Positions 10,498 to 57,400 of a DNA stretch of 64,000 bases are shown here, in pieces. Location: NCBI GenBank assembly GCA_030704615.1, contig CM060733.1, forward strand, positions 55,800,001 through 55,864,000, written 5' to 3'. The notes below the pieces were generated by a model. The model searched no databases. It was given only the letters and a program-made list of their open reading frames with translations, and was not told the DNA's origin. The translations under genes were made by a program, and so were the position numbers. How positions within the stretch are numbered: the first letter of the stretch is position 1; each line of letters starts with the position of its first letter. The DNA is from Takakia lepidozioides. Lineage: Eukaryota; Plantae; Bryophyta.

Positions 10498-10536
<39 letters not shown>

Positions 10537-20429: not shown

Positions 20430-22050
20430 GCATTGCATTAAGACCAATGACGTTGAACGGGGAAAGCACGTGCATGTCCACGCAAAGGGGATTCAAGCCA
20501 AAGTTATTTCTACTTAACACTCTTGTCAATGTGTATGCAATGTGTGGAGCATGATGGACGCAAGCCAAGGGTTTGACAAAATGATTATACGGGAGGTTTG
20601 TACATGGACTAAAATGGTCAGAGGATATGCGAGGTATGGGTGTGATAGGGAGGTTCTCGAGATGTACGAACGAAAGGCGTGATGCCTGACAAAATCACAT
20701 TTATTTGTGTTCTCGAGGCAAGTGTCATCCTAGGAGCCTTGGAAAAAGAGGTCTATGCTAACATCGTCAAAGCTGGATTGTGCAGATATCTTGCTGACAT
20801 GTATGCCAAATGTGGGAGCATAAAGGATGCACATAAAGTGTTTGACAATATGGCCGAGATGTGGTCTCATGGAATGCGATGATAGCAGGATACGCTCAGC
20901 AGGGTTGTGGAAAGGATGCTCTTGAAATGCATGAGCAAATGATGCATGAAGGGGTGATGCCTGACAAGGTCATAATCATTTGTGTTTTGAATGCATTTGC
21001 TGGTCTGGCATCCCTGGATGAAGGCAGACAGGTCCATGCTGCCATGATCAAAGCAGGAGTTGCACCAAATATCATTCTGGAGACTGCCCTTGGGGAGCAT
21101 AGAGAATGCACTTGAAGTGTTTGACAAAATGTCTGTACGAAATTTGGCGCATGCAATGCAATGATAGCTGGATTATGCTAGGCAAGGGTGTTGTGGTGAG
21201 GCTTTTGAGATGTACAAAGAAATGATGTGGGAAGGGGTGATGCCCGACAAAGTCTTTATTTGAGTTCTGAATGCGTAGGGCAGCCTGGCAACCCTGGAAA
21301 AGGCGAAAGAGCTTCATTTTGACATCATCAACTATATAATTGCCAGATATTATTTTGAACACTTCCCTTGCATCCGTTACAGGATATGCTGCGCATGGTT
21401 GTGGTTAGGGAGACTTTTGAGATGTATGAGCAAATGATGCAGGAGGGGTTCATGCTCAACAAGGTCACATTCATCGGTGTATTCAACGCATGTGCCAGCA
21501 TGGCAGAGCTGCAAAAGGGAAAAGAGGTCTACATCAGCATCCTTGAAGCTGGAATCACACTGGATATTAATTTGGACAATGCCCTTGTCAACATGTATGC
21601 CTAATGCAGGAGTGTAGATCATGCATGTCAAGGGTTCAATACTATGGTCGAACGAGGTGTGGTCTCATGGATTGCCATGATCACAGGATGTGCTGAGAAC
21701 GGCTGTGGCAGGGAGGCCCTGCAAATATTTGAAAAAATGCAACAGGAAGCCTTGAAGCCAGACGGTATCACCTCTGTCTTCTCGCTGCATGTAGCCATGT
21801 GGGCTTAGTGGATGAAGGCCATCACTACTTGGATTCCACGAGTCAAGATCATGCTCTCATGCCTACTGTAGAACATTATGTCTGCATGGTGGGTGGGCCT
21901 TGTTGGCTGTGGAGGCTGGTTGGATGAGGCAGAGGATCTCATTACAAACTGCCAATCAAACCAGGTGCTACAGTGTTAGGCACCTTGCTTGGAGCCTGAA
22001 GAATTCATGGCAATATGGATGTAGCAGAACATGCCTTCTCATGTGCAATT
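20430..22050 (+). pseudogene. PLS-class pentatricopeptide repeat (PPR) gene with E-domain, degenerate
   Basis: Repeated PPR motifs (DMYAKCGSIKDAHKVFDNM, VSWNAMIAGYAQQG, PDKITFICVL, NALVNMYA) and E-motif remnants (PTVEHYVCMV, LDEAEDL, RIHGNMDVAE), broken by many stops and frameshifts. Confidence 0.88.
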
Positions 22051-26778: not shown

Positions 26779-27927
26779 CTAGGGTCCCCGGTATTTACCA
26801 AAGCAAAAGCAACCCTGAGGTTCATAGTCCGTTGGGATCATGCCACCACCCTTACTCGTATCGATGGCTTCCAACATCCGCACTACCTCAGTCATGGCAG
26901 CCCGCTTCTCAGGGTTACTATCCCAACATTTCTTCATCACATGTGCAAGAGCATGAGGACAACATTGTGGGATCTTTGGTCTCAAGTGTTGGAGTACCAC
27001 AGACGATGTCATCTCTGCAAAGCTGAGGTCAGGATATGGCATGTCACAACAGTAAATTTCCCAGAGACAAATACCAAAGCTGTAGACATCACACTTGCGA
27101 TTATACGGCTTTCCATCCAACACTTCAGGGGCCATGTATCCAAGAGTCCCTGTCTCCCCGGTCATATCCTTCGGATTTTGGGCTTCCACCCTAGCAACTC
27201 CAAAATCTGCAATTTTGACATTGCACTGTTTATCCAACAGCATGTTCTCTGTCTTCACGTCTCTGTGAGCAATTTTCTGTGAATGCAGATAATCGAGTCC
27301 CCTCGACATATCCAAGGCCAATTGGATCACTACCTTCAAGGAAAGCTTCCTCCTGCGGTTTCGATAAAGGTAATCCTTGAGGGTACCGCCTGGCAAGTAC
27401 TCCACCACCACACAACAAGCATTGTTGGGCACATGCAAAAAGCCATCGTCTCCTTCTACTGACGACGGGATTCGCAAATCTGAATTTCCCATCGAGGCTC
27501 CTATGAACTTCGTCACATTGGGATGCTCAAGCTTATGCCACACAGCCACCTCTTGCCTGAATGAAGTTCGAAGGTTGGCTACTTCAGCCTTGGTCATGGT
27601 GGCTTCCTCCCCCCAATCCAGCAATTTGACTGCCACATCTTGCCCCTCGTACACCCCTCTGTGCACCGTGCCATAGGTTCCATGTGCAATCACATTCTTG
27701 AGTAAGACTTTCCGAGGATCGATCTCCCAATCCAACACAGGACCACGAGGCTCCAGCGACTGCCTCTGCCTGCTCAACCGTCTCTCAAGCACAGCATCAA
27801 GATCTGCCAAGTTCACCAAATCTGCGCGCACCATGCTGCCCATATTCTTCACAGATTTCGGATTCTCCCCAACAGGTTTATCTTTCTCTTTCCCCTCTCC
27901 AGCCGGATTTTCTGACCCTGCTTCCAT
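26779..27927 (-). CDS. Raf-like MAPKKK (plant group C, ATMRK1/ATN1-like) Ser/Thr-Tyr kinase; coding region intronless
   Basis: Complete kinase domain: IAHGTYGTVHRG, VAVKLLDWGEE, EVAVWHKLEHPNVTKFIGA, HRDVKTENMLL, DFGVARVEAQNPKDMTGETGTLGYMAPE, C-terminal GCFCF. ATG at 27927 is preferred because a pyrimidine-rich CAG acceptor lies just upstream; the ORF extends to 27966. Confidence 0.93.
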   Translation of the reverse strand: MEAGSENPAGEGKEKDKPVGENPKSVKNMGSMVRADLVNLADLDAVLERRLSRQRQSLEPRGPVLDWEIDPRKVLLKNVIAHGTYGTVHRGVYEGQDVAVKLLDWGEEATMTKAEVANLRTSFRQEVAVWHKLEHPNVTKFIGASMGNSDLRIPSSVEGDDGFLHVPNNACCVVVEYLPGGTLKDYLYRNRRRKLSLKVVIQLALDMSRGLDYLHSQKIAHRDVKTENMLLDKQCNVKIADFGVARVEAQNPKDMTGETGTLGYMAPEVLDGKPYNRKCDVYSFGICLWEIYCCDMPYPDLSFAEMTSSVVLQHLRPKIPQCCPHALAHVMKKCWDSNPEKRAAMTEVVRMLEAIDTSKGGGMIPTDYEPQGCFCFGKYRGP

Positions 27928-29815
27928 GGTTCCCTGAACAAGGCCAGAGACGCACATCAGCACCATCTTCTGTGGATTGCTACGTATCTCACTCTGAATT
28001 GAAAATTGCCCTCCCCTATCCCTAATCTGTCTGTAAAAGATAGGCTGCTACTCCGTACGCGATGTCAGAGATTTGTTAGCAATACCATTCTAACTTGCTC
28101 GTATCCGAGATGTACAAGTCCTCCGCCTCAAGCTCCACAGAAACCACAAGAACCTGTCCAACCCACTTCCCAAAATCCTCCCTTTACTTGCCCCAAGAGC
28201 TCCCAGAGCAGAGCGCATGCAAGAGACAAAGGCGCAGGCAGAGGAGAGGAAAAAGCTGCAGTGGTGCAGAAGCGAAAACCTTGAATGGAACGGAACGAGC
28301 AAGGCAATATACCAAGGCGAGCCTAGGCAGGTGTCAGCTGACCAACCCCCCCGGAGGTTGCCACCTCCCTTTAACACGCCTACCTTTTTCTTTTCTTTTC
28401 TTTTTTTAACACCTTCTCTCAAAAAAGAAACACATTTTATTTTTGTAAAGTTATTTCAGAGCGGAATTCCAACTTTTATTCCCTTTTCCCTTCAATAATC
28501 TTCTGAATAAAGTCTTACCAGGGTCCTGCTCCCTGTTCATTTAAAAAACAACAAATCCCTTTTCCAATAATTTCTTTTTTCTTTTTTTTCGTTTTTGATT
28601 TTTTAACGGTTGCAATGGGTTTAATTTTTCCCTGTAATCAACTACCGTAGAGTCCTTCGATGTCCGGCGTTTATTAATTCAAATTTTGTTTATCTGAAAT
28701 ATTCAGAGAAGTAATGACCTCAATGTCGAACCGATAAAACAATTCTGATATACCCTAATTACCTCCCTAGAGGTAACTTAAATGTATGTGACCACCTTGC
28801 TTAAAAATTGTAAAAATCTAAATTTAGGTGCTGGACCTACTTTATCTGAAATAATTAAATATTCCAGCAATGCGACGGACAGCGAAGGACTCTACCGTAA
28901 ATGGCTTCATGCCCTTGGTGTAAGAAAAAAAAAACGGTTGCTTCGCCGAGTGTTTCAATCCTTAGAACAAAAAAAAATAAAAAACTAAAAAGCAAAAAGA
29001 CGAAAGGAAATGCAGAAGAAAATCCTAGGTTTGTTTGGAAGAAAAAGAAGGGCAAAAGTTGTCGTCAATTGTAACGGACTGACTCCCTTTGCAAATATGA
29101 CTTTCCGGGGCGCAGTTTCCCATCCCCGGACAGTTGTGGATAGCGACCTCGACACGTTCCAGGGCATATTCGCAATCCAAGCATGGGAAATTTTAGACAA
29201 TCTTACTCTCGGACTTTCCGGGAATTTCGACTAGACGAGTAAGCATTACTCGCGATCTCGAGCATTACTCTAAAATCCAGGAAAGAAGGTAAGATTGTTA
29301 GGTGCTACGTATAAGACGACGAGGACCATTCATTCGGGTTGCCAGCTTTTGTTTTGGTTTTTGTTTTTCTTGAGGATGAAGCCCGAAGCTTTTATAATTT
29401 TAAAGAACAATTAATTAAGTTAAATATTTATTTTTCAATTTGTAAGTTACGCCGGGGGAGATCAGGGGAGGGGGAGGAACGGCGTCCACGAACGGGGCTC
29501 CCGAGACACTTCCGGCATCGCATTCCGGCCGGCCCCGTAACGGAATCATGTACCCGAATCTGGGGCGGTGTGTACCTGTCAGTACATGAATAGTAACCTG
29601 GCACGTGTCCCATGTGTCAGACGACCGAAACTTTCTGGACGGATCAGCGGATGGACGAACAGGTACGACGAGAAGTCGACGAACGAAGATGGGGGCCAAA
29701 CGAGGGCCACATACAGTGAACCTGCAGAGCAGTATGCATCTCGCTGAGAGAGAAGAAAGCAGTAGACCTTTTTTAAGGGTTTATTGGTGTAAAGTATAAA
29801 GAAAGCGCTTGCCAA

Positions 29816-33301
<3,486 letters not shown>

Positions 33302-34121
33302 TTAGCTATAACATATGGGCATGCTCCATCTTTTCACTGTCTTGTCAGGGTGGTCAAGCATTTAGAATTTATTCCAATCCGTAAGTTCTATTCCAGACAA
33401 TGTAGCTCTTTCTACCTGGAAGAAAAATCAACTCGGAAATATGAGAGTTGTATTCTTGAGTTCCTTTGCTGTCTGTTGGTAAAGGTAGGCACAATTCAGG
33501 GTGTACACAAGCATTTTGATTGATTCAACTTTGAACCAATATAACTGTGTGCAAACTACATGAAACAACCATATACATGTGCCACCATTGGTAGATGAGC
33601 TACTACAGGTTTCTAATTCCTTCCGAACATGTCCCACGTCTGTTACCCCCTGGTGGCCATAGGTGAATGAGGGTGTCAGGAAGAGTCTCAACTGTAATCT
33701 TCTGGTGCAAGAGTGAAGAAGGCAGCAAGGAGCCAGCAAATTGAGAGAGAGAGACGGAGAGTCCTGCTGTACAAGAAGGCTGTTTATAATCAGCAGAACG
33801 CCTAGCTTTTTCAAACCTAATTCGGGCTACACAAAAGTGACGGAAGTCCATATGCCTCTGTCTTCACCGAGAGTCGAACTCAGGACCACATGGGGTGGTT
33901 CCTCTGATGATAGATCGTCCACAGGAACGAGGGTCGTTCATGTTTCGTTCGGGTTGGGGTTGTGAGGAAGGTCTGGGGTTGAAGAATGTGTGCGAGGGCC
34001 GCTTCGTGTCCAGGGATTTCGAGTCTGGGGTAGGTATTGATCGGGATTGAATATGTTGAGGAAATTCCTCCACAGCTGCAAAGGATCGAAGGGCCTGTGA
34101 AGGATTGAGGGGGTGGACAGT

Positions 34122-34871
34122 ATGACAGAGCATGAGCAGGAGCAGGAGATGGAGATAGAGGCGTTGCAAGCCATTTTGATGGACGATATTGAGGAATTGG
34201 AGAGCGGCGACAGCGGGCTGGGAACAAGTGCTCGTTGTTTCCAGATTACCATATCACCGAAGGATGATGATGAGGATGAGCCGACTGACATCCCAGTGCG
34301 ATTGGCTCTTGTGTTTGCGCACACTCCCACTTATCCTGATGAGCCTCCTCTTCTTAGTGTGCGCAGTTTACAAGGGGTGACAGTTGCGGATACCAAAGAG
34401 TTGCAGGAGAAACTGAAGCAGGAGGCAATGGAGAATGTAGGGATGTCCATGATGTACACTCTTGCGACGTCTGCCAAGGAATGGCTGCGGGAAAGATTCG
34501 GCCAAGACCGTGGCTCTTCTGATGTGGAGGATGATGACGAAGTAGCGAAGGAGGAGATTATTGAACCGCATGGAGAGGCCGTGACGATTGATACTTTTTT
34601 GGCTTGGAGAGAGCGGTTTGAAGCGGAGCAAGCACTCGAGCGGGCCAGGCTAATGCCAGAGGCTGCGCTGTTGGCTTCCAAAGAGAAGAGGCACAGTGGA
34701 AGGATGTGGTTTGAAGCGAAAGGTGGGAAGATTGTGCCTGAAGATGTGGATGAGGACGAAGACAAAGACCTTGACTTTGAGGATTTTGATGACGATGAAG
34801 ACCTTGATGAAGATGACATGCTTGAACACTATTTATTGGAAAAGAACGATAAGACTACCATGCCTGAGTGA
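34122..34871 (+). CDS. RWD domain-containing protein 1 (GIR2/RWDD1-like, DFRP2 family); coding region intronless
   Basis: MTEHEQEQEMEIEALQAIL, YPDEPP RWD motif, ENVGMSMMYTL, HGEAVTIDTFLAWRERFEAE, SGRMWF and an acidic tail. Confidence 0.92.
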   Translation: MTEHEQEQEMEIEALQAILMDDIEELESGDSGLGTSARCFQITISPKDDDEDEPTDIPVRLALVFAHTPTYPDEPPLLSVRSLQGVTVADTKELQEKLKQEAMENVGMSMMYTLATSAKEWLRERFGQDRGSSDVEDDDEVAKEEIIEPHGEAVTIDTFLAWRERFEAEQALERARLMPEAALLASKEKRHSGRMWFEAKGGKIVPEDVDEDEDKDLDFEDFDDDEDLDEDDMLEHYLLEKNDKTTMPE

Positions 34872-38599: not shown

Positions 38600-39300
38600 T
38601 TGACAAATTGGGTATGACCTATTAGTTGATAGACGCACAAAATGAGTTGTACGCGAGGTATTGCCAACCATTAAAACAGAATTTGTGTGGATGAGATGAT
38701 GGTCAAGTACAAAGAGAAGTATTCTAAACTACAACAGTACATGGCCAAGAAACCAGCGAAGTGAGGGATAATTGAAATTTGGTGCTTAGCCAATGCTAGA
38801 TCTAGGTGTGTGTAGAAGATGGAGGTGTATCTTGGAAAAGATGACGTGGTTGATTTGTCTCATGACATGGGGTATTATGTCGTGAATAGATTATTGTCTG
38901 GCTTCAAGGGCAATGATCATATTGTGACAACGGACAATTTTTTTTAAACTCCTCTGTTCTTCTATGATTTGGCTGCCCAAGGCATTTATACCAGCATTCG
39001 TACTGTCAAGACTATCCGCGTCGGATTTCCTACATGTTTGGATTTGGGGAAAGTGGAGAGAGGGGTAAGCTTGTATGGTGCATGCAGATATCTAACAAGA
39101 TTGTGACCGCCTTCTCTTGGTATGACAATAGGTGTGTTACCTTGTTGTCCACTATGGTGAGCCCCAATGCTGCGAACTGTTTCATACATCGGTGGCACAA
39201 TATTGCTGCTCATCGTCTTGTCGATCCATCCCCCATTGCGCAACACTACCACTGACACATGAAGGGGGTAATTACATATTGAACAGTGGAAGACCTATAA
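38600..39300 (+). mobile_element. Degenerate piggyBac-like transposase (DDE_Tnp_1_7) fragment
   Basis: Translation from ~38685: CVDEMMVKYKEKYSKLQQYMAKKPAK*G..IWCLA...MEVYLGK...VVNRLLSGFKGNDHIVTTDNFF*TP..F. This matches the piggyBac catalytic blocks (DE.M..F.G...QY...KP.K.G.K; H.V..DN.FTS). Confidence 0.82.
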
Positions 39301-42700: not shown

Positions 42701-43739
42701 GAATTGGTTTTATCCAATAACTTAGCCCCAAAAGGGCCTGGGCTTTTGGCTCAGCCTCAAGACTCTCAAAGTTGGTAAACAGAGATATAGACACAATTCC
42801 CTTGATAGATTTAAGGAGAACGTCTCTCTGGTTAGAGAACCCCGGACAATGAATTAGAAAATGAATGTCTTCAGGTTGCCCACACAACGGGCAATTGCAC
42901 TCTCCCTTCCCTCTCTGCTTTTGTTTGCTGTTCAAAGGTAGGGCGCTTCCCCCCCCCCGAGTTTAAATTTCAGTCTAGATAGTGCCGAGAGTGGGTAGAC
43001 CCTTGAGGTCATCCATGATCTCTTCCCCCATGTCACGGACTAAAAACAAGTTTAGGGAAATTTTCTGCCTAACTTCATTTTCATCAGACAATATATTTCC
43101 TGGCAACAGACATGGTTTTGGACACTACACCTTTTAAGTCAGATTTATCCAGGGTCAAGACTTGTGGATTAAGATTCAGATCCTTGATAATCTCTTCTAC
43201 TCTCTATCTGATGTTGGACATATGTTGCATCTGACCCCACCATCTGACCTTGAATTCATCTATTCGGGAGCTTAAGGAAGGTATACCAAACTCACCCCGA
43301 ACAGCCACATTGGTTGTTTTGGAGCATGTTGACATGCACTCCTTAAGCATCCCCACTTGAATGGATTCTATAGACTTAGCTAGCTGGTTGGAGGTATCAA
43401 CCCATATTGCAGATGCGTACTCCAAGGCAGGTCTCATAACGCGACAAAGCATGGTATTCTTTGACCTCAGAGTTGATCCCTCTGCTCCCAATTACAATTC
43501 AAGGAAAACTCAACGCCCAGGTATGTGTAGGAAGGGAATCCACCGGAATCTCTTGGCTACCCCACTGCCACTTGAGATCACTTCCTCTCTCTCATCGGTT
43601 GTTGAATGCCACCACAACACATTTACTGCATGACGTTGTCTTCTAGCTCCCAAAGGTCACAATATCTCTTTGCGCAATCAATCAACTCCTGGAGGTTGGA
43701 AGGAGTCTCCCCTATGCCTGCGAAGTCATCCGCAAACAT

Positions 43740-43784: not shown

Positions 43785-44111
43785 TGATATTGGGATTTGC
43801 GGAAAGCCAGGAGGATGATGAGAAGTTGAGGGACTTAGGGCATCACCACATGAGCGGCACTGGAAGCAAACGCGAGACTATGATTGGTCACTTCATGTCA
43901 GTGCGGCACCATCACCTACCATACGAGAGGAACAATGTCGTGCGTTTACATATCGCTACACAACTACATCGCTGTCCAAAACCACACAACACATGTGCAC
44001 ACCACACACTAGTATACCACTAGTCCACCACTAGTCCAACCACTAGGCTACAACTAGTCAGTCACTAGGCTGCCACTATGCTGCCCACTATGGCAGTCAC
44101 TAGTCCACACA
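43783..44111 (-). repeat. 3' LTR (possibly partial) of the Gypsy element
   Basis: Minus strand: PPT-like AGCTAGGGGGGCGAT immediately followed by TGTGTGGACTAG at 44111; ends ...ATATCACA at 43783 (or ...TACA at 43779). Confidence 0.6.
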
Positions 44112-44371
44112 ATCGCCCCCCTAGCTGGTGCTTAGGTCCCTCTAAGTCCAGGTAGCCACAAGATGTGATAGTGACCATAGCTTCACTAAGTCCTCCACCA
44201 CTATCCCTACTACACTCAAACTCGATAGATCAAGAGGTCGGGTGCAAGAGTTGCCCCATCGTTAGTCGCCGTCTTGCAACCTGTGAACTTGAGCTTGGGA
44301 TCTCATGTATTGACTCCTATGAGCTTGGCCTCCCATGTCTTGTTAGCTGCCTCCAGTCATGTCCACTGCCA

Positions 44372-45720
44372 CTATCCCAAGCAGTGTGGACACAACCAAT
44401 CTCCGTCAGGAACCTTCTCAAGAGGTGGTGTCAAGCATCCCATATGCCAACCCCTTGAGCATCGATCACACACCAGCATGGTGGCTACCCCTTTGGCAGA
44501 CCCACAGAGCATGCACCTCAAACCTGCAGGTACCACTGCCAAGTTTGGATCAACTTTGCCATCGACATTGGGAAGGTGACATGGCGCACAATTACGCACA
44601 TGGTCCTTCCAAGTCATGCCATCCCGACCCTCAAAGATCAGGACCCCTGAGGGCAACACCTCTCGAACCCTCAGAATAACACGCCCTGCAGTAACATCCA
44701 GAGTCATAGGAGCAGTCTGCTGCAAATAAACATAGTCACCAGGGCTAAACCTCCGAACCCCAGGACGATATCCTCCACCACGTATAGTGGCATACCTCAA
44801 CGTATCACGGTGTTGTGCAATGGCAAGGTTCTCAAAAGCCATGGGCATGACTTTCTTGAACAACTCTGCACGCTGATCACATGCACGTACCCACACGTCC
44901 GGATCGTCAAGGTTAAGGACTTGAGCAGTGTCCCTACGAATGGCTGCAGGCAAATCCGGCTCTCAGCCAAAGAGAAGGAAATATGGTGAGAAGGAGGCAA
45001 GTGATGCTTGTTTGTTGAACGTGTAGCCCATGGCTAACCAAGGAACCTGAAGATCCCAATCTCCTAGGTGTCCCTTCTGCAAGCCATACTTGCGCAAACC
45101 CCTCTTCACCGTCTAAACAACTCTCTCTGCTAAGCCATCGGCCTCAGGATGATCCCAAGAAGTGGTGCGGTGGTCTATCAAGGCTTTATCACATAAAGCC
45201 TGAAAAACTCCCCCAAAAACTCTCTCCCTTGGTCTGTGAGTACCTCAGCTGGAGCACCAAATCGGCTAAGCACACAATCCAAGAATGCATACGCAGCCCC
45301 CTCACTAGCCTTGTCAGGCAATGGGACCAACTCAATCCACTTGGAGAAAGTGCTCCACCATCACCAACACATATCTGTGGTGGCGCATAGTCAGTGGCAA
45401 CGGTCCTGCGAAGTCAAGACTCCCCTGTAGCCTAATCCCATGATTGGTAAAGGATGCAACTGTGGTGTAGGGGCGTTGAATGAAGCACGCACCCTGTCAC
45501 ACACCATGCACCTAGCCACGAACTGTTGCACCTCTGTATGCATACCACGCCACCAATACTGCCCCTGCAGTAAACTGTGAGTGCGTCGCACTCCAAAATG
45601 CCCCAACTCCTCATGGGCATGCCGCACTAACCGTGCACACTGTGTGGGGTGAGGCATAATCCTCACCCGACCATCCTCCCACACTCGAAGTAGGTGTATC
45701 CCCTCCCACTTGAACCTCTT
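44372..45720 (-). pseudogene. Gypsy integrase with C-terminal PHD finger
   Basis: HHCC motif (HEELGHFG...CMVC), LDFAGP, LTDQG, HPEADGLAER catalytic blocks across frameshifts; C-terminus CMLC...LVCDRCSRGWHMGCLTPPLEKVPDGDWLCPHC (C4HC3). Confidence 0.92.
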
Positions 45721-45999
45721 GGCTCGTTGCAGGATCCGATCCCTCTCCCTGGCAGTCACAATGGCTGCCGTGTCTCCCGTGCGGAGGTAGTCCAACACAG
45801 CCGAATCCTCATGTATATCTCTGGCACCACCTAGCTCATCACTAGCCTCAGGGTCCTCAGACACTCCGTCTACAGTCATCCCTGTTGTAGGTCCAATCTG
45901 ACCTCCCGATGCCAAGATACACAAAAATACAGATGCGTGCCATCCCGGCACCATCTCCTCGTCCGTCTCACCATGCCACCGAGCTCCAGTGTCATCCTG

Positions 46000-47345
46000 C
46001 TGGCTCATGCATGGATTGCGACTCAATCCATCCGCATCCCGATTGACCAAACCGGTCGATGCACAACCTGAAAGTCATACTCCTGGAGTATAAGTGCCCA
46101 CCGTGCAAGCTTCCCCGTAAGCTTGTCTGACTCCATCAACCACTTGAGTGGCTGGTGATCCGTGACAAGGGTGAAAAGATTGTCGTATAGATAGCACCTG
46201 AAGTGTGCCACGGCCCACACTGCAGCTAAGCACTCTCCCTCATATGAGCTGTACTTAGCCTCTGCAGCGTTGTTCGAGCGGCTAGCGTAAGCCAATACGA
46301 ACTCTCTTCCCTCATCATCCACCTGTGTGAGCACCGCTCCAAGCCCCAGCATGCTCCAATCCGTATGCAGCTGAAAGGGACGCCCCCTGATAGGTCGTCT
46401 CAAGATAGGCGCCGAGGTCAACCTCGCCTTGAGCTCTTGAAAAGCTCGTTCCTGCTCATCTTCCCACTGCCACTCCTGGTCCACCTTGGTCAGCTTGGTT
46501 AGAGCCTTTGCAATGGTACTAAATCCCTTGACAAACCGTCTATAATAGTTTGCCAACCCCATGAAAGCTCGAACTCGGCTCACATCCGTGGGGCGTGGAA
46601 TTTGTGCAATGGCCTCTACCTTAGTCTCTGTACCCCCAATCCTCCAGGATATATCATGTGACCCAGATACTCAATCTGGTTGTGGAAAAACTTGCACTTC
46701 CCCGGATCCAACTTCAATCCGTGCGCTCTCAAGCGCTCCAATACCACCTGAAGGTGTCTCTCATGCTCCTCCATCGTAACACTAAAGATGATGTTCATCT
46801 ATGTAGCACCGAGCAAAGTCCACCCCTGCTAGAATCCTATCCATGACTCTCTGAAACTCTGCAGGAGCATTCTTAAGCCCAAATGGTAAGAACCGCCACT
46901 GATATAGGCAATCCTTGCCGTGCTCATTGATCCCCCAGAATGCCGCCTGCTTGTCCGCCTCCTTGATTGGCAACTGGTGATATCCGGATCGTAAATCCAA
47001 AGTGCTAAAGGCCTTAGCATGCCCGATGGCATCAAAGATCTCCTCTGGTGTTGGCATGGCATACTTATCGGACTTGGTCTGACGATTTACAGCCGGTAAT
47101 CACCGCACATACGTCTCTCCGTCCAATTGCCATAGACATCCTTCTTGGCTGGCATCACTGTGGCTGAAGCATACTCTCCACCAGAGAGCTCCACCAAACC
47201 TGCCTCCCAGAGATCTTGAGTCCTCATCTGAATCAAAGACCTCTCCATGTCACTGTATCTATAGGGTCTCCGAAAGATTGGCGTGTCAGTGGCCAACTCA
47301 ATACGGATCTCTTGACCCTTCAGTGCTCCCAAGTCCTTCAAACTG
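46000..47345 (-). pseudogene. Gypsy reverse transcriptase and RNase H
   Basis: RMCGDYR, FSTLDLRSGYHQL, LPFGLKNAPAEFQRVMD, CYID(D) broken by an indel, IEYLGHMI, VRAFMGLANYYRRFV, LHTDWS, YEGECLA, TDHQPLKWL, LARWAL, DADGLSR. Confidence 0.95.
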
Positions 47346-47799
47346 AAGGCAAAGCAATTCCTGTAAGCCCTCAGGAACCGCCGTATACGTCGTCTCTCTC
47401 CTCCGGTGACAATGGGTCCAATGTCAGGCTCCCAATTGTCCTCCGTAACTGCAACCTTAAGTCCAGTGGGCTTAGAGGTAGAGGACGCGTCCAGTGGTTG
47501 CTATGTTGCAACCTCTTGAGCAGTACTCCCTGCCTGCTCAGTCAATGACAAGGCCTCATCCTGCCCCATCATCTCATCCTTGAGGACCTCCTCAACCCGA
47601 GAAGAATCCCCAACCTCATCCATCACAGCCGCCTTGGCTGCCAACTCCCTCTGAACCTCGAGCACCTCCCACGTGTGCCATGGATGCATGCACCCCGTGG
47701 TCCTCACATGCTCGCCCCCACTCACTGCCTGTACCGTCTCGGTAGGCAGAGAGACCATTGAGGGAAGTGTACTCCGCACTCTGCGTTGCTCAGCCAGAG

Positions 47800-48750
47800 C
47801 CAAGCTGATAATCCAGGTCAAGCAATTGAGATCCATTGCTTGCCCCAACACTTGACGACGTGATGCCTCAGAAAGAGACGACACCGCCGTGGTACCAGTG
47901 GTAAAACCCATTGCCCGCTCACGCTCGTCAGCATTAGGCTCCACTAACTGCTGCAACTGAGCATCCCACAGGAGGCCAGGTCCACTATCCCGGAAAGCAT
48001 GCGATCCTGGGAAGCTGAGCAGTGTAGGTAATGCTGCTCGTGGTTGACCCACCTTGTTGACCACTGCCAAAGGCGAACGGTCATCGTGTCTCACACGCTG
48101 AGACTGCCTCCCTGTGTCCAAATGTTATCCACTGTGAGATGTGCTGGCCGCTGCACCCCATCAAATGCACGCTTGAGCAGTGCGGGTGGCATCAAGTTAG
48201 TCCACCATAGCCGTGGACGATGAGCCCGTGACCCCACTGTAGCTGCATCTAGCAACACTGCTGACCCAAGCCACGACCGGACTTGATGCACACTGGCCAT
48301 CACCCTGGCCCGAGAATCGCCCATCAGTGGCACATTCTCCAAGATGTATGCTGGAGATACAGCTTGATGAAGCTGCAAGTGGCGCAAAACCCGCACCATC
48401 TCCCAAAACAGACCCGACCTCGAGTCTCGCAATCCATTGCCATGCCCGGCTGATGAATGCCCTTGGCAGGGCCAACCTGCCACTACCAGATCAATGGAGC
48501 CAACCCGCTCCAAATCCTGCGCCCCCAGCAACGAAATGTCTGCTGGCAAGGCCTGCTGATATCCACGAATTGCAGACACCGACAACAACTCAGGGTACCG
48601 CTGCACCAACTGAGCAACATGGCGAAGTGAAACGCGTCGTGCAGTCTCATCCCTCTCCACATACAGGTAACGCCGAACTCGTACACCTGCTTGTAACACA
48701 GCAGCCAATCCGGTGCTGATCCCGCCAAACAAGTCCAGAAGACAAATGCC
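47800..48750 (-). pseudogene. C5 cytosine DNA methyltransferase domain (DNMT3-like) within the retrotransposon polyprotein
   Basis: Motif I LDLFGGISTG (48718-48738), II YVE, III ADI, IV DLVVAGWPCQ (48463-48477), GLFWEMVR, VI YILENV (48331-48339), VIII AHRPRLWWTN (48196-48219), IX ERERAMGF (47903-47926), X RRQVLGQAM (47834-47848). One 1-nt frameshift near 48120. Confidence 0.93.
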
Positions 48751-49109
48751 TTCATCCGGATACTGCCACACAATAGGTGTGGTGTCCAATGGAGACAATT
48801 GAGGTGGTCCTGGTGCAATCCCCACACTCTCCTCCTCTCCTGACGGTACAAAAGCCTCCACCCAGGCTTGTTGCACCCGTCGATCAGCATCCCGCTGCAA
48901 ATCCTTGCTCGTGCCCCACAATGGAGTCTGAGCAACCATGGTAGGCAACTCCGCCATACCATACATGTCATCCTGCTCTCCCGGAGGTGGTACATCCTCT
49001 GAATGAGCATTGCCCTCAAGCAACTCTCTAGGCCAACTCACTGCCGCTGTGAATGCTGCTAGTGTCGGCATCTTGCCTCGCTGGGCAACCGCAACTCCTC
49101 CTATGAACG

Positions 49110-49805
49110 TCACAGGGAGCTGCACACGCCGCCCTCCCCTGACTGCCATGCAGGCCTATAGGAAGCTGACTCCTCCCAAAAATCCAGGGTGAAGCCCATG
49201 GGGTACAACACTGCCCCACCAACCAGGACATCGTATGAGACCGCGTCTGTCACAATGGCCTTGGCTCGCATCACTGAGCCATCTGTAGGGTGATCTGGCC
49301 GTAGTCTGATAGCCAACTCATGCCATGTCATGCCGCGAGCCTGCTCCGATCCTCCCAGAGACGTCTGTATCTGGAAAGGACAAGGCTCCATATCCGCCTC
49401 CGTGAGGCCCAAGCCTGCAATAGCAGCTCTGCCCAGCATCAATGGCTGAGCTCCCGAGTCCAACAAGACCCGCAGTGGCCGGTACCTCTTGCCTGCCGGT
49501 CCACTCAAACAGAAAATGTCATCCTGGTTGTCTAACATGACAACTCCAGGTGTCACCATGGCGCGCTCAATGGCTGGCCTAGCTGGCAGCTCCATCAACC
49601 TGGCAGCTGCAGCTTGCCATGGCGCCGTCGTGGCAGTCTTGATCCTCAAATCCGAGGATCCCTCCGGCACTACACCTCCCACTATCTCCGCAGAAGATGA
49701 AGTAACCTCCCCACTCTCACAGAGTGTAGCTGCCAGCCTGAACACCTCAGCTGGTTTTACCCCCGCGTCGCAATCATGGTAGCCGAGAACAATGGAGCCT
49801 GGCAC
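49110..49805 (-). pseudogene. Retropepsin-like aspartic protease of the Gypsy element
   Basis: VLLDSGAQ catalytic motif and the downstream YDVLVG motif. Confidence 0.85.
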
Positions 49806-51672
49806 ACAAATGTGGCCGCTCCTAGCAGGACACTAGCTGCCGTAGCCTTGGCAATACTAGGTAGTGGTGCTACCCGTGTAGCTCTCCCCAATGGCATAGT
49901 AATTTCCGCCTCGGTAACCGTCAGACGAGAACTAGGTGCCATGGATGGCGTCGACACTGTCTCCGCTAATGTGAATGACTGAGGAAGCCTAGCCTGACGG
50001 CTTGCCTCCCTACGCTGTGGATCCAACTCCACCTCTGCACCTCGTGGCTCAGGAACTCGTGCTGCTCCTCGAGTCACGGCTGCAGCAGACTCCACCTGCA
50101 CTAGTGGTAGTGCTGCTCCACACATGAATCCCATGCCTCCCATATCTCCTCCCTCAGGAGCAGGAGGTGGACCATCCGGCCTTAGAGCCGGTACCACCTG
50201 AGCTGTAGCCATGGCAGCGAGCCTCTGCTCTAGCTGCTGAAGCCGGTTGGCCATGCCTTGGTCAACACCCTGACCTCCGCGTCCTTGGCCACGTTGAGCT
50301 TGCCCTTGGCCTGCACCTCGTGGCTGGCCACCTCGTCCTCTCTGGGCTGCTCCACCTCGCCCCCGGCCACCATTGTTCCCTTGGAACTGGCCTGGGCGCA
50401 ACTCAGGATGCAAACCATAACACTGGGCCTCTCCATGCCCGTGCTTGCCACAATGCCCACACTGCAACTGTGCAGGCTGTGCATGTGCCGACCCTTTGCC
50501 TCCCTCTGGGCAATCCTTCTTGACATGGGGTCCTCCACATGTCCAGCACACCACATCCGCCTGTTGTTGGCCAGCAAATGAAGGGAGAGACCCCTGCATC
50601 TGAGGTCCTCTCTGCCCTTCCCTGAGCTTCACCTGAGCCCCCTTGTTGCCTTGAGCACGTTGAGGTAGTGGTTGGCTAGGAGCACCACTACCCCGTGGTG
50701 TCTCCTTAGCAAATCCCACCGTGACCACTCGTTCCTCCACCATGTTGAGCTCTATCCGCTCTACCAGCAAAAACACATTTGCTAAGGTGGGTTGGGCCGC
50801 TTGTAAGAGAGTTGCATCCCGCACCCTTCTCCTCAGTTCCTTGTCCAATATCCCATACCAGAATTGGACTGCCTGAGCTTCCGTAACCCCTTGGGTTACA
50901 TTTATCAAGCGCCTCATGCGAGTGAAAGCCTCCCTCAAGCTCTCGGTCGGCTTCCGTTGGAACTCTTGCAAGCTCCGCAACTTCTCTGTCCTCACCCCTT
51001 GGTAGTTCCCTCTCTCAACTCTTCGAAGAACTCCACAACAAGGTTGAAGGCAGGCACGGGTGCTAGTGCTGGTGCGGTAGTGGCTTGGGTGGACGTCGTA
51101 GCTACTGTACCACCAGTCCCACTGCTGCTTGCTGAAGCTGCCGGTGCAGCGGCAGGTGTAGCCACTGCCCTCGTGGCTCTAGTGCCCCTAGTGATGGAGA
51201 CATAGTCGGGTGACCAGTACATCCTCCACTCCTCGATCTCAACCTCATGCCCCCGACTGAACTCATGGTAATCATCCATAGGTGGCCCCTCAAGGTGCTG
51301 AAATAGCCCCTTCCATGCCATGAAAGGCGTAAATAGTTGTGGATTGCACATTTGCTGCAAATCACACCAACTATCAAACTCTTGGATAAAATCATCCAAC
51401 TCGATGGTGCCCACCGCCCCAGAGTACCTTCGTGGCCCCTTGGTAGCTCCATACATCTCCTCCATTGTGTCCCACAACAATGGCAAAGAAACAACTTGCA
51501 CCGCCGGTATGAGTCCTCCTGATTCACAATCCGAATCAGAACCTTCCGTAGAAGACACAGGAGGTGAAGATGGCCTAAACTGCAGACCTCGTCTCGTGTA
51601 CCCACTAGTATCGCTAGTGCTCGAACCGGCACTGTCCCCAGCAACTAGTGGCACCTCCGTGTTGACACTCAA
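49757..51672 (-). pseudogene. Gag with two zinc knuckles (frameshift near 50995)
   Basis: LQEFQRKPTESLREAFTRM (retrotransposon gag motif), CWTCGGPHVKKDC, CGHCGKHGHGEAQC, RGG-rich nucleocapsid tail. Confidence 0.88.
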
Positions 51673-52379
51673 CCGGTCATGAACATGTCCCTAACCCCCT
51701 CTCCACAAGGTAACCGGGTAGAGAACCTGTTGCGGCTTATGGTTTGGAATACTAAGTTCCTAACATAGCCTACACCTGTACCTGCATCCACCGCAAGCAC
51801 TCCTATGGTTGGCTGGTCATCACCTCCAACCTCACCACAGGAGAAACAATGATGGTCTGGCTGGTCATCACCCCAGCCTCACCATCGACAGCATGCTCTA
51901 GGACTGGCTGGTGATCAAATCCGGACCAATCACCTATAAAAATAAGCGCCCACACAAAACTAGCATGGCGCACAGTCAAGCATGCAGGTATGGAGGGGAT
52001 CCAAACACAAGAAATCAGAACGACAACTCCCCCACACCAAAAACAACTCCACGGTGTTGCTCCTGCAAGGACACCCCAGCCCAAACCCGGACTGACTCTT
52101 GCCTCCACCTACGGAAAGGTCTTGGCCTAATGAGAGGGTGGAAACTACGAGGAAGAGAAGCTAAAGCAATGCCTAACCCCAGCATGCCCTCATCCCAACA
52201 CTCTTCCTCTCCTCTCTTCCCTCACTTGCATGACCATGGGAATATCATGAAGATACTCCTCAAACCACCCTCCACGAGCTTCAAAATTCGGCCTTCCAGA
52301 CCACATGCCAGTCCTTAGGCAGTCCACCAGTGCCTCCACGAGTCAGCACAGGCCGTCCACAGGTCAACACGGGCCACCA

Positions 52380-53550
52380 CAGACCAGCACAGGCCCACAC
52401 AGCTCACTGGTCACAGCCGTCACAGTCCCACAGGCCACTGGGCACAGCCTGTCACAGCCCGTCACAGCCCCACAGGCCACTGGGCACAGCCTGTCACAGC
52501 CCCTCACAGCCCCAAAGGCCACGGGCACAGCCTGTCACAGCCCCTCACAGCCCGTCACAGCCCCACGGGCCTCAGGCACGGCCTGACACAACCCCTCACA
52601 GCCCCTCACAGCCCCAAAGGCCTCAGGCACGGCCTGTCACAGCCCCTCACAGCCCCCAAGGCCACCGGCGTAGCCCGTCACAGGCCCTCACAGCCCGTCA
52701 CGACCCCGAAGGCCACCGGCACAGGCCCTCATAGCCTGTCACAGCCCCGAAGGCCACTGGCGCAGCCCGTCACAGCCCGTCACAGCCCTGAAGGCCACCG
52801 GCGCAGCCCAACACAGCCCCTCACAGCCCCAAAGGCCTCAGGCACGGCCTGACACAGCCCCTCACAGCCCGTCACAGCCCCAAAGGCCTCAGGCACGGCC
52901 TGACACAGCCCCTCACAGCCCGTCACAGCCCCAAAGGCCTCAGGCACGGCCTGTCACAGCCCCTCACAGCCCGTCACAGCCCCAAAGGCCTCAGGCACGG
53001 CCTGTCACAGCCCCTCACAGCCCATCACAGCCCCAAAGGCCATGGGCACAGCCCGTCACAGCCCGTCACAGCCCACAGGCCACTGGGCACAGCCTGTCAC
53101 AGCCCCGCACAGCCCGTCACAGCCCCACAGGCCACTGGGCACAGCCTGTCACAGCCCCGCACAACCCGTCACAGCCCCACAGGCCACTGGGCACAGTCTG
53201 TCACAGCCCCTCACAGCCCGTCACAGCCCCACAGGCCTCAAGCATGGCCTGACACAGCCCCTCACAGCCCCAAAGGCCTCAGGCACGGCCTGTCACAGCC
53301 CCTCACAGCCGTCACAGCCCCAAAGGCCTCAGGCACGGCCTGTCACAGCCCCTCACAACCCATCACAGCCAAAGCCTCAGGCACGGCCTGTCACAGCCCG
53401 TCACAGCCCCACAGGCCACTGGCACAGCTTGTCACAGCCCCACAGGCACACAGCTTGTCACCCCCGCACAGCCCCTCACAGCTCGCCACAGCCTGACACA
53501 GCCCGTCACAGCCCCACAGGCCACAGGGCACAGCCCGACACAGCCCCATC
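52380..53550. repeat. GC-rich minisatellite (11-bp CCCGTCACAGC-type units forming ~37-48-bp higher-order units) in the Gypsy 5' leader
   Basis: Dozens of (G/C)TCACAGCC units, e.g. CACAGCCCCAAAGGCCTCAGGCACGGCCTGTCACAGCCCCTCACAGCCCGT repeated 52820-53040. Confidence 0.95.
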
Positions 53551-53979
53551 CATGGCCGCTCTGGCAGTTTAGCCATTTCTCCAAGGGGTTTAGCCACGCC
53601 AAGCTAGGGTTTGTGTCTCTTGGACTCTAGGCTTCTTTCCACTGAGCTATGGCGGCTGTGAGGAAATCAACAAGGTATTCTTGCTCTTTCGGCTCCCACA
53701 CACCACCATAGTATCCCTAAGCCATGAGGTGGTTGCCACAAACCAAGCCTTCTTTCTCACTTAGCCTCCCCAAACACGCCACTAAACTCAATGGCAAACA
53801 ACCAAGCCCTGCTGGTTCCCAGCCCTTGTGAGCACTCATTCAAGCACTCTCCTTGGCCATAACATCTGTCTTAGAGCCTATTTCAGCCCCCTACACCTGC
53901 TGCTTCAAGAGTTGCGCTCCCTTCAAGCTTGAAGTTGAAACCGCAACTCACATAGGCCCTACAAGTGCTTTTCTTTCAC

Positions 53980-54400
53980 TCCAAGTGGAAACCAGCCCTA
54001 GACCTTCCGTTCTAGCTCTCTAAAGCTTGAAAACAAGAGCCTCAATGGGCTGAAGGCATGCTCCACACATGCCCCACTCTCACCATAAGAGAATCAGCTC
54101 CTTTGCTTCATTTCTTGCACCCACAAACCTGAAAATACAAGCTTCAGCAGGCTGAAAGCATGCTCCACATGCCCTACAGGGAAACCAGCCCCTTCCTTCC
54201 TTTCTTGCACTCCCACACCTGAAAGTGCAAGCCTTTACCAGGCTGATAGCATGCTCCACACATGCATTGCCCTCACATAAGGGAAGTCAGCCCTTCCCTC
54301 TTCTTTGCTTGCCTTCCAAGCTTGAAGATGGAAGCTTCAATGAGCTGAATACATGCTCCACACATGCAACCTCTTCACACAAGAGATATCAGCCCCCTAT
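53980..54400. repeat. Degenerate ~100-bp tandem repeat
   Basis: GCTGAA(N)(G/A)CATGCTCCACA recurs at ~54049, 54152, 54243 and 54343, each with a preceding CAGCCC...TTGC...TGAA block. Confidence 0.7.
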
Positions 54401-57400
54401 CTTGGCTCCTTGGCTCCTTGATGCTCTCTAAGACAAGACTAAGCACTCCACAGCCTTTGCCAAGCTCCTCAAACCCTAAGGCTTACATTTCCAGCCACAA
54501 GACACTTCTCTTGTGGTGCAAGAGCTCTTCTTCCAAGCTCTGAAACCCTAGGTGCACATTCCATGGCCTTGCCGCACCTCTTAGCTCCTGTTCCAGCCCT
54601 GCTCTTGCCATGACAAGAGCCCTCTCAATGCTGAAGCTCGAGATTGAAACCCAATCTCACCATACTCCACAAAGTGCACTGATTTGCCCCAAGCCAAATC
54701 AGCCCTTTCGCTTGGTCTTGCAATCCTTCACACAATGAAAGCTCGCATTCCCAAGTTCAGTTCTCAGCTTTGCCACCAAAGCCACTATAACCTGCTCTTG
54801 ACTGGTCCTCTTCCCAATCGTGCTTGCTCATGCATGTACACAATCTGAAACCATCAAGGTGCTCTGGAATTACCTGCAGCATGGTGCTTTCATCTCTGAA
54901 GCTGAAGATCGAATGCCAAGGTCTACCACCTCGTAACCCACATCGCCTCCGCTTCTAACAACCAAGAGCTCCACGGTGCTCCTTGCATAACAACTTGGTT
55001 TCTCTCATTCTCAAGCAAAAACCACAAGTGCCACAACTAACTCGTATCTGGCACTCACAGATACGAGCTCATCTTTCTCGAGTGATAAAGAAGAAGAATA
55101 CAAGCACGAGCTCACAAATCTGAAGCATAAACTCATGCATATATAACCTCATCACTCAAATACAAGTCAAGCCAAGTGCACCCCACGCCATGGGGAATCC
55201 ACACTACGGCGCCATAGCTAGGCGCGGTGAGGCTCAACTCGAGAAAGATGAGCCTCCCGCACTTGCCGTGAAGATAACCACTCCAGGGCCTAAATCTGCC
55301 TTGACCCCTGGATTGACACTTGGGCCAATCCCAAATGTCAATATGTAAAAACTAGCTATTTCCTAGCTAGTTTCACACTAGTGGCAAAATAACTTGACAA
55401 CAACCATCAACGCCAAAGAAAAGTATGGCTGACGTGGTGCGGACGTGGAGCCTCTCCGCGGAAGTCGGATTTCCAAGGACTACCGCCTGGAAATCCGAAA
55501 TGTTAGGGAATGTCTTTGCCGTGTTTCGATCCTTCCCGCCATGGAGCTCGTGATCTCTGTCGTTTACCATCTCTCTCGATCGTCGTTTCTTCTGTCCCTT
55601 CTTGTCTCCTTATGCACACTGGATTGCCGGTCGTGTGGTAGCCGTGTGGTGGTCGTGCTGACATGTAACTACGTTCTATTACTATCGCCCCTTATATTCC
55701 TAGCCAGGGACTTCCACGTCATTGCCTCTTGTTGTCGCTCGTGTGATAAGGCCCTTAGTCATTTTGGCAGGACTAAACTATAGCTCTTCCCCACAACGCA
55801 CGATCGAAACACATTGAATGACGGAAAATCATCCTGTGGCGTGTCAAACCTCCTTGACCATGCGTTGCATATTCAGCCACGTATGTCGATAGACCGATAT
55901 TGCACAGGGTAGATCATAGGCATCACAGATTAAGCGCAGCCTTCCATGTACCCGGCCCACCATTTAAGGGAGGAAACGGACAAAAATGGCCAGGTATGAT
56001 TCTGACTTCCATGCATGGGGTGGCAGGGCCCGGTCGTCGAGTTCCCGTGTCGGTAGCGTAGCCCGATAAAATGGGAAGAGAGCTCGTCCGCAGAGTACCG
56101 CGAATTGAACGCAACTCCACTTACCTGCCACGTCACTCGTACCTGCAGCACCCTGCAGTATAGTTGACCCTACCTTACTGTTACCTGCTTATGTGTTATT
56201 TCTCTGTAAATGTTATGGTTTTGATATTCCGCAAAAAAAATACATTAGAAACCATGTCAAGAGTGTTAAGTGGTTAATTGTTAGTTTATCCTACTCTTCA
56301 TAGTGTTAACGCACCTCCATACTAGTTAGATTCCATAAAGAGGCACCTCCATAGTAGTTAAATTCCATAAAGAGACGTCCCCAAAATAGAGCATCCATTC
56401 ATGCTCATCCAAAATAGAGCATCTATTCATCCATTCATGAGGTTCAAGCTGCCATCCACTCTCTTGTGAAGTGTTTAGCAATCCAGAAGGCAGTGTTTTC
56501 AGCTAGGCATTCTACTTCTCAACAAACCGACATTCTTTCATATTTCCAACCTAGTCAAAGATTAAATGTTATATTTCATTGGCATAACCGGGTTTACTGG
56601 CCTCTCATTTTAAGACAATAGGGTCTTCAATGGGCACGTGCGATGTGGCCGGTGGGCCCTGCGCACGGACGCCCGGCTCCCCCCACCCCACCCGCCGCTG
56701 CGCGCGGTGGCCCAGCCGGGGGCGCGGCTACAACAACCGCGCCCGCGCCCACTCCGCCCGCGCCCCCGTCCGCCGCGTTGCCAGTCCCCCATCCATGAGT
56801 CCGCTGCCCTCTAGTCTGCCCACCAGTCCGCTGACGGCGCAGGATCTCCACCGTCCGTTCCCATAACCCATCCGAGCCCTCCATTTTTAGGGCTGCGAAA
56901 ATTGCAATGATCTTGCCACCAAATCCTGGCCGCTCTCTTTTGACGTCTATTTGTTGTTCGATGTTGCGGTAGGCGTTTCCATGCACACAATTGTTCCTCT
57001 TTTGCGCGCGATGTTCATAATGATGATGAAGCGTGTGCTTGAACATGAGAGGACTGTCTCGGCACTACAGCCACCATCGTGCATATGCTTCCACTATTTT
57101 TGTCTTCTTGTTGTGCTTTCGGGAACCTTCGTTTTATGGTTTGGTTCTATGTCATAAATATGGGAATGCGGAAATCTGTCCTCGATAACATCCTCTGCTT
57201 GTGATCCGTCGTGATACGTATAGCCCCTTCGTACCGCATCCCTCATGAGAGCCTTCACAAGTTTAGTTCGTTAAAGGAACCCCATGGGTAACATGGGCGT
57301 GAAAATGGCGGAAGCGTATGCACATGAGGGCGTGTATTGCAAATTTCGTATTGGACAATGGGACTGTTTATGTGACCAAGTATAGCGGCTTGCATCCGTC

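What the first reader, a model, noticed from the sequence alone, without database searches (positions are those of the whole stretch)
44372..44520. PHD finger in place of the usual chromodomain at the integrase C-terminus
Seen: a complete C4HC3 finger, CMLC-x9-LVCDRC-x4-H-x2-C-LTPPLEKVPDGDWLCPHC, in frame with the integrase tail. Established: chromoviruses carry a chromodomain here that guides integration. This PHD has Gly, not Trp, two residues before the His, so it lacks the ING-type aromatic cage and resembles H3K4me0-reading PHDs (CHD4/BAZ2/KDM5-PHD1 type). Inference: it steers integration to chromatin lacking H3K4 methylation, the same mark state the DNMT3 ADD domain reads.
Basis: partly seen in the sequence, partly recalled or inferred. 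Interest (0 to 1): 0.7.

Follow-up and report, generated by a model that had tools for sequence, protein, structure and literature searches.

The report
PHD-tipped integrase of Gypsy-DNMT3 retrotransposon
A dead copy of a high-copy plant jumping gene ends its integrase with a real PHD zinc finger that most of its relatives share and that likely docks the insertion machinery on histone H3 tails, a known kind of add-on whose exact mark preference is untested.

Summary
The finger is real: a complete C4HC3 PHD (minus strand, 44515-44381; Pfam E 7e-11; predicted fold overlays solved PHDs at about 1 A), in frame with the integrase tail. It belongs to an 11.5-kb dead Ty3/gypsy copy (43936-55399, 4-bp target duplication) that also encodes a DNMT3-like methyltransferase; relatives show the split-repeat ends described for KnitGypsy-Dnmt3. 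The PHD is family-wide (106 of 120 tail homologues; 46 of 51 RT-ranked relatives that extend past the tail), shows purifying selection (pN<pS in 53 of 53 pairs, not independent), and never has the cage Trp. Two corrections. It is not shown to replace a chromodomain: no chromovirus feature was found. And this branch keeps the H3 Ala1/Arg2 contacts of KDM5-type fingers but lacks their acidic Lys4 residues (0 of 17 closest, 66 of 89 distant), so strict H3K4me0 reading is doubtful. One Closterium clade lacks the finger. PHD-bearing gypsy polyproteins are in print for Chlamydomonas, and this scan found the same thing three times on other genomes. Verdict: new member of a known kind; likely a histone-tail tether for integration; binding and targeting untested.

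The parts
44381..44515 (-). C4HC3 PHD finger, last domain of pol (stop at 44374-44372)
   Evidence: Pfam PF00628 E 6.8e-11; ligand positions; model and fold search
44516..44962 (-). Integrase tail: long helix, SH3-like beta domain without GPY/F motif, conserved CAPCHLP linker
   Evidence: 77% identity to closest integrase tails; model secondary structure; motif count
44963..45700 (-). Integrase H2C2 zinc-binding domain and catalytic core, broken by frameshifts and stops
   Evidence: Pfam Integrase_H2C2 1e-15; alignment to P0007
46056..47461 (-). Reverse transcriptase and RNase H, frameshifted
   Evidence: Pfam RVT_1 5e-14, RT_RNaseH 2e-35
47501..47503 (-). In-frame stop between the DNMT frame and RT, shared with relatives (possible read-through site)
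47765..48810 (-). DNMT3-like C5 cytosine methyltransferase, one frameshift near 48121
   Evidence: Pfam DNA_methylase 3.8e-13; best solved matches DNMT3A/B E 6e-10, DRM2 2e-5 to 4e-4
49131..49619 (-). Aspartic protease region
   Evidence: weak Pfam Asp_protease_2 E 0.009; alignment to P0124
49760..51465 (-). gag-like region
   Evidence: 47-78% identity to the N-terminal part of Marchantia P0124/P0126; no Pfam hit; called gag by position
52390..53550 (.). Tandem array of about 41-bp and 10-bp units in the 5' leader
55083..55399 (-). 5' terminal repeat part A; begins TGTCA; target duplication ACAA at 55400-55403
   Evidence: joints and loose ends; depth falls beyond
43936..44110 (-). 3' terminal repeat part B, preceded by a G-rich tract; target duplication ACAA at 43932-43935; this copy lacks the second A and B that sister copies carry

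Best explanation
This is a PHD zinc finger fused to the integrase C-terminus of a Gypsy-DNMT3-type retrotransposon, and in active copies it likely tethers the integration complex to nucleosomes by gripping the free N-terminus of histone H3. Shown: the fold, the fusion, its family-wide retention and selection, the absence of the methyl-lysine cage, and retention of the residues that bind H3 Ala1, Arg2 and Thr3 in KDM5A-PHD1. Inferred: that it binds H3; that protease cleavage leaves it on integrase; that binding biases insertion away from H3K4me3-rich gene starts. Because this branch lacks the acidic Lys4 residues, its discrimination against K4 methylation is predicted to be weaker than in classic H3K4me0 readers. 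This copy is dead.
For: Fold: rmsd 0.6-1.4 A over about 46-52 residues to DPF2/3, ATXR5, UHRF1, BAZ2A/B PHDs (PHD region pLDDT 92-97). By the gapless alignment with KDM5A-PHD1 and the residue roles in 10.1101/715474, L309, V330, P331, G333, W335 (Ala1/Thr3 pocket) and D312 (essential for Arg2) are all kept; in 106 complete family fingers D312-equivalent D 102, P331 P 92, W335 W/F 105, H-2 W 0. BAZ2A still binds when K4 is changed to Ala but not when R2 or T3 is (PMC5415848 table 2), so an A1-R2-T3 grip can work without the K4 contact. Selection: median pN 0.25 vs pS 0.67 in the finger, 0.20 vs 0.68 in the integrase tail. Precedent: Gypsy-7a_cRei has a PHD in Gag-Pol and inserts between genes 2.6 times more than chance (PMC9940879; the authors leave targeting versus selection open).
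Against: No binding or insertion-site data. The window finger has Val, Ala and Ala at the positions of KDM5A E305, D306, D292 and Ser at D315; acidic residue at E305 or D306 in 0 of 17 closest fingers, median net charge +2 against -5 in distant ones, and E305K strongly reduces H3 binding in KDM5A, so binding may be weak or absent. Five Closterium proteins cover the tail and end without a PHD, so the finger is dispensable in one clade. Some PHDs of this sequence class bind non-histone partners (PMC3241642).
Confidence: 0.55

Rival explanations
1. First reader's stricter case (a sub-case of the best explanation): a selective H3K4me0 reader that steers integration to chromatin lacking any K4 methylation.
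For: No cage Trp; top PDB matches are unmodified-H3 readers; distant members keep the acidic wall (66 of 89); several K4 contacts in KDM5A are main-chain.
Against: Acidic cluster before the first Cys, given as a defining feature in PMC3241642, is present in 2 of 17 closest fingers and absent here; acidic wall 0 of 17. KDM5A-PHD1 itself binds K4me1 nearly as well as K4me0.
Confidence: 0.25
2. The finger has a non-histone job in this branch: binding DNA, the nucleosome surface or a host protein, or stabilising the integrase C-terminus.
For: Shift from acidic to basic surface in the closest relatives; non-histone PHD partners exist; the Closterium clade ends instead in a short basic tail.
Against: Ala1 pocket and Arg2 Asp are kept, which a non-histone role would not obviously require.
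Confidence: 0.22
3. The PHD stands in for the ADD domain and guides the element's own DNMT3-like enzyme to H3K4-unmethylated chromatin.
For: DNMT and PHD travel together: 30 of 41 loci with at least 4.5 kb upstream have a DNMT hit (one of these lies downstream on the other strand); DNMT3-like by best match.
Against: RT, RNase H and integrase lie between the two; a conserved in-frame stop separates the DNMT frame from RT-INT-PHD in this branch; Closterium P0154 has the DNMT without the PHD. The published idea is self-methylation of the cDNA (PMC5890265 abstract).
Confidence: 0.12
4. A passenger domain with no current role.
For: This copy is dead; one clade lost it.
Against: pN<pS in 53 of 53 pairs with synonymous sites near saturation; kept in chlorophyte, Klebsormidium, Coleochaete, liverwort and moss members.
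Confidence: 0.04

Closest known systems
KnitGypsy-Dnmt3 of Klebsormidium nitens (PMC5890265), called Gypsy-DNMT3 of streptophytes in 10.64898/2026.05.21.726589
   Same: Gypsy domain order, intronless DNMT3-like gene within pol, DIRS-like split repeats; K. nitens proteins fall in the same RT clade, support 0.97, and two K. nitens proteins carry the integrase PHD.
   Different: Land-plant-type branch; in-frame stop between DNMT and RT whereas the paper has them in one ORF. The paper's text and its 3 held supplements do not mention a PHD; its Fig. 4c could not be seen. The two K. nitens PHD proteins have no DNMT hit, so they are not shown to be KnitGypsy-Dnmt3 itself.
Gypsy-7a_cRei and REM1 of Chlamydomonas reinhardtii
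   Same: Gypsy elements with a PHD finger, proposed to steer insertion (PMC9940879; PMC8557442 calls PHD a common accessory domain of C. reinhardtii TEs).
   Different: No DNMT listed for Gypsy-7a; position of its PHD not seen (figure legend only); relationship to this clade untested. REM1 paper not held; its PHD plus chromodomain on an antisense ORF is recalled.
Chromoviruses (REXdb, PMC6317226)
   Same: A histone-reader fold after the integrase SH3-like domain.
   Different: No chromodomain and no GPY/F motif in this family; split terminal repeats; DNMT.
KDM5A/B-PHD1, BAZ2A/B, ATXR5, DPF-PHD2 fingers
   Same: Best sequence and fold matches; Ala1 pocket and Arg2 Asp kept; no cage.
   Different: Acidic wall and N-terminal acidic residue missing in this branch.

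Membership tests
PHD finger (PF00628) | C4HC3 ligands with canonical spacing and Trp two before the seventh ligand | tested here: met
PHD finger (PF00628) | PHD fold | tested here: met
   predicted model, rmsd 0.6-1.4 A to solved PHDs
H3K4me3 readers (ING/BPTF type) | Invariant cage Trp | tested here: not met
   Gly here; W in 0 of 106 proteins and 0 of 70 loci; that this Trp sits two before the His is recalled
H3K4me0 readers (KDM5-PHD1/BAZ2/AIRE/BHC80 type) | No aromatic cage; Ala1 pocket; Arg2-binding Asp | tested here: met
H3K4me0 readers (KDM5-PHD1/BAZ2/AIRE/BHC80 type) | Acidic residues before the first Cys and/or acidic wall that engage unmodified Lys4 | tested here: not met
   absent in the window finger; 2 of 17 and 0 of 17 in closest relatives; 60 and 66 of 89 in distant ones
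H3K4me0 readers (KDM5-PHD1/BAZ2/AIRE/BHC80 type) | Measured binding to unmodified H3, lost on K4 methylation | not testable with these tools
   needs peptides or nucleosomes; no histone H3 sequence was available for a complex prediction
Chromovirus | Chromodomain at the integrase C-terminus | tested here: not met
   PF00385 in 0 of 120 listed tail homologues, 0 of 120 listed RT homologues, 0 of 24 and 0 of 43 rescanned; the one hit is a salmon outgroup protein
Chromovirus | GPY/F motif before the C-terminal reader (feature recalled) | tested here: not met
   0 of 106
Chromovirus | RT nests within chromovirus clades | tested here: inconclusive
   family is one clade (0.936) apart from six outgroup sequences, but no named chromovirus references were on hand and the root is arbitrary
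Gypsy-DNMT3 / KnitGypsy-Dnmt3 kind | Ty3/gypsy order PR-RT-RH-INT with a DDE integrase | tested here: met
Gypsy-DNMT3 / KnitGypsy-Dnmt3 kind | Intronless, unpermuted DNMT3-like domain within pol | tested here: met
   (best match, no DNMT tree built)
Gypsy-DNMT3 / KnitGypsy-Dnmt3 kind | DIRS-like split repeats A1-ORFs-B1-A2-B2 | tested here: met
   complete in 5 of 38 loci examined, B pair alone in 9 more; junctions in sister copies of this element; this copy keeps only A1 and one B
Gypsy-DNMT3 / KnitGypsy-Dnmt3 kind | DNMT in the same ORF as RT | tested here: inconclusive
   same frame but separated by a conserved stop in this branch; no stop in L072, L073
Phygy / Selgy non-chromoviruses (REXdb) | RT clade membership; Phygy NCGN target preference | not tested
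   no reference sequences; the four target duplications read (ACAA, CATA, AATC, ACCT) are not NCGN

The most novel reading that the evidence does not exclude
An ancient green-lineage clade of split-repeat gypsy elements pairs a DNMT3 writer with an integrase-borne PHD (plus a Tudor-like domain in algal members) that targets insertion by reading the H3 tail, a second histone-guided targeting system parallel to chromoviruses; the streptophyte branch rewired the finger from an acidic K4me0 reader to a basic reader with a different preference, and makes the integrase-PHD only by stop-codon read-through.
Probability: 0.25. Interest if true: 0.65.

Novelty: new member of a known kind. Interest (0 to 1): 0.36.

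Why it matters
If the finger reads H3, it shows retrotransposons recruited a second histone-reader fold for target choice, independently of chromodomains, and gives a small recombinant domain plus mappable insertions in liverwort and moss genomes with which to test it. The natural contrast between acidic, basic and PHD-less branches is a ready-made experiment. Practically, several Marchantia 'PHD-type domain' gene models are pieces of this element.

Tried and rejected
No whole genome is held. The deep representative search never ran, so no broad chromovirus reference set; the tree test is inconclusive. Viral contigs gave no relative (32 pattern matches, none confirmed). RNA: no RNA holder listed; three raw RNA runs laid 0 reads at about 1 in 100 sampling, which is no test; one guessed-RNA contig set matched sister copies only. 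REM1 paper not held. Paper searches for an integrase PHD in land-plant gypsy elements found no direct description; the library lacks most subscription journals, figures and bioRxiv supplements, and REXdb supplements were not read. Rejected: chance motif; host PHD gene fragment next to a transposon (fusion is family-wide); ING-type K4me3 reader; ordinary paired LTRs in the window (none found). The first frame check used an out-of-frame query and was redone.

Full report
Observation. On the minus strand the window reads CMLC-x9-LVCDRC-x4-H-x2-C-x14-CPHC, then two residues and a stop. Pfam gives PF00628 at E 6.8e-11 over the full model. An AlphaFold model of the 196-codon open frame (49 sequences, mean pLDDT 85) overlays solved PHDs of DPF2/3, ATXR5, UHRF1 and BAZ2A/B at 0.6-1.4 A. 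The finger shares its frame with the end of the integrase core and an SH3-like tail.

The element. Upstream lie integrase, RNase H, RT, a C5 methyltransferase, a protease and a gag-like region. The methyltransferase matches DNMT3A/B best (E 6e-10; DRM2 2e-5 or weaker). The element spans 43936-55399 with ACAA on both sides; contigs of DNA runs cover it deeply to these ends and fall off beyond (summed contig depth is not a copy number, X1 and X2 are one sample, and one may be the window's source). About 11 frame changes and several stops break this copy; at the break sites listed, sister copies differ from it, so the damage is private to this copy. Relatives have split ends A1-ORFs-B1-A2-B2: complete in 5 of 38 loci examined, the B pair alone in 9 more, with 4-bp target duplications readable in 3 of those 5. 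Sister copies of the window's element show both A/B junctions; this copy has only A1 and one B, from recombination or assembly collapse (inference). This layout and domain set match KnitGypsy-Dnmt3 (PMC5890265: passages, section 9 and a term search of 3 supplements).

The finger is a family trait. The tail search found 143 proteins and listed 120, with names from Marchantia, Calypogeia, Sphagnum, Klebsormidium, Coleochaete and chlorophytes; 106 of 120 have complete ligand spacing, and most of the other 14 are truncated or damaged fingers. That query held the PHD, so I also ranked by RT-RNase H alone (2050 hits, 120 listed): of 51 that run at least 50 residues past the integrase tail, 46 have the finger, one has a long-loop version, three a broken half and one a variant Cys/His stretch. 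That count dropped proteins ending sooner, among them five Closterium proteins that cover the tail and stop without a PHD, a natural loss. Of 80 metagenome loci, 70 align over at least five ligand positions; of eight with no PHD hit, six end at the contig edge. Many loci are duplicates, so these are not independent counts. Against 53 loci with one continuous alignment (27 left out), the finger has median pN 0.25 and pS 0.67, the integrase tail 0.20 and 0.68. An RT-RNase H tree of 143 sequences gives one family clade (0.936), a branch holding the streptophyte-named proteins (0.97, with K. nitens P0241), and the window beside Marchantia and Calypogeia sequences (FastTree, arbitrary root).

Not shown to be a chromovirus. 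No chromodomain occurs in any family protein listed or rescanned (one search had 43 of 95 intended), and no GP[YF] precedes any of 106 fingers. Descent from a chromovirus could not be tested without references. REXdb's text (PMC6317226, passages) has no 'homeodomain' or 'methyltransferase', and the listing shows 0 'phd'.

What it could read. The closest solved PHDs are CHD4, KDM5B/A-PHD1, PHF12, ATXR5, MLL3 and DPF. The alignment with KDM5A-PHD1 is gapless, so its residue roles (10.1101/715474, passages) can be carried over. Kept: L309, V330, P331, G333, W335 (Ala1 and Thr3) and D312 (Arg2, essential). Lost: D292, E305, D306, D315. Across the family the cage position is G 98, A 6, never W. An acidic residue at E305 or D306 occurs in 0 of the 17 closest complete fingers and 66 of 89 distant ones, with median net charge +2 and -5 (positions counted from the ligands, loops vary in length). 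In loci, D306 is acidic in 18 of 70, all one subfamily by eye. PMC3241642 (passages) names an acidic cluster before the first Cys as typical of unmodified-K4 readers; PMC5415848 (part 2 of 8) shows BAZ2A needs R2 and T3 but not K4. The simplest reading is an H3 N-terminal grip with weak or uncertain K4 discrimination in this branch.

Mechanism. Most likely (0.55) the finger stays on mature integrase and tethers the integration complex to H3 tails, disfavouring K4me3-rich gene starts. Fold, fusion, conservation and residue pattern are shown; binding, cleavage and targeting are inferred. The ADD analogy is weak: RT, RNase H and integrase lie between DNMT and PHD; 12 of 31 loci have a single in-frame stop between DNMT and RT in the context TA(G/A)CAA, as the window does, 7 more in-frame loci have it among extra stops, 2 have no stop, and 10 are frameshifted there; and Closterium P0154 has the DNMT without the PHD.

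What is known. DNMT3-bearing gypsy elements: PMC5890265, and preprint 10.64898/2026.05.21.726589 (part 1 of 5 and passages). PHD in a gypsy Gag-Pol with a targeting proposal: PMC9940879 (passages, section 13). PHD as a common algal TE accessory: PMC8557442 (passages). My searches found no description of the integrase-terminal PHD in land-plant elements, but figures and many journals are not held. This scan reached a like verdict on three other genomes; those notes are not independent evidence, and a sequence look-up and a place look-up returned nothing.

Verdict. Real, conserved, a new member of a known kind. Interest 0.36. The added points are the loss of the acidic K4 surface in this branch, the PHD-less Closterium clade and the conserved stop.

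Noticed in passing
window 47501-47503 (-); loci L005, L018, L020, L024, L037, L039: Conserved in-frame stop followed by CAA between DNMT and RT; the window and L024 fit the UAG-CARYYA read-through context (motif recalled), while most others have an ATG two codons on.
   Followed up: partly
L037, L039, L047, L062, L073; window ends: Integrase-type element (TG...CA ends, 4-bp target duplication) with DIRS-like split repeats; could reflect an unusual replication or integration intermediate.
   Followed up: partly
P0081, P0084, P0036, P0074 and other distant relatives: A conserved 100-350 residue extension after the PHD with weak PTM/DIR17-like Tudor hits (below cut-off); 83 of 106 fingers have a tail over 20 residues; the closest relatives end at the finger.
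   Followed up: partly
P0154, P0224, P0242, P0261, P0263 (Closterium): Clade lacks the PHD; some end in a short basic GP(M/V)TRA tail.
   Followed up: partly
P0034, P0051, P0096 versus window and P0025: DNMT lies between RNase H and integrase in distant members but before RT in this branch.
   Followed up: no
window 7187-7569: Second fragment of the same family (protease region), 85% identical to 49326-49686.
   Followed up: no
window 9266-11410: Large nested inverted repeat (arms up to 446 nt, 98%) with 24-bp AATTCAATTG units; foldback-element-like.
   Followed up: no
window 43400-43730 (-): Repetitive flank that looks by eye like the end of a LINE reverse transcriptase (motif recalled, not scanned).
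   Followed up: no
window 38600-39300 (+): Decayed frames that look by eye like a piggyBac-type transposase (recalled, not scanned).
   Followed up: no
window 26779-28047 (-), 34101-34871 (+), 20500-21800: Host-like genes: protein kinase and RWD domain (Pfam), and repeats that look PPR-like by eye.
   Followed up: no
clusters 4 and 6: Marchantia 'PHD-type domain-containing' gene models cluster with this integrase tail, and one family member is labelled as an uncultured cyanobacterium, likely a mis-binned contig.
   Followed up: no
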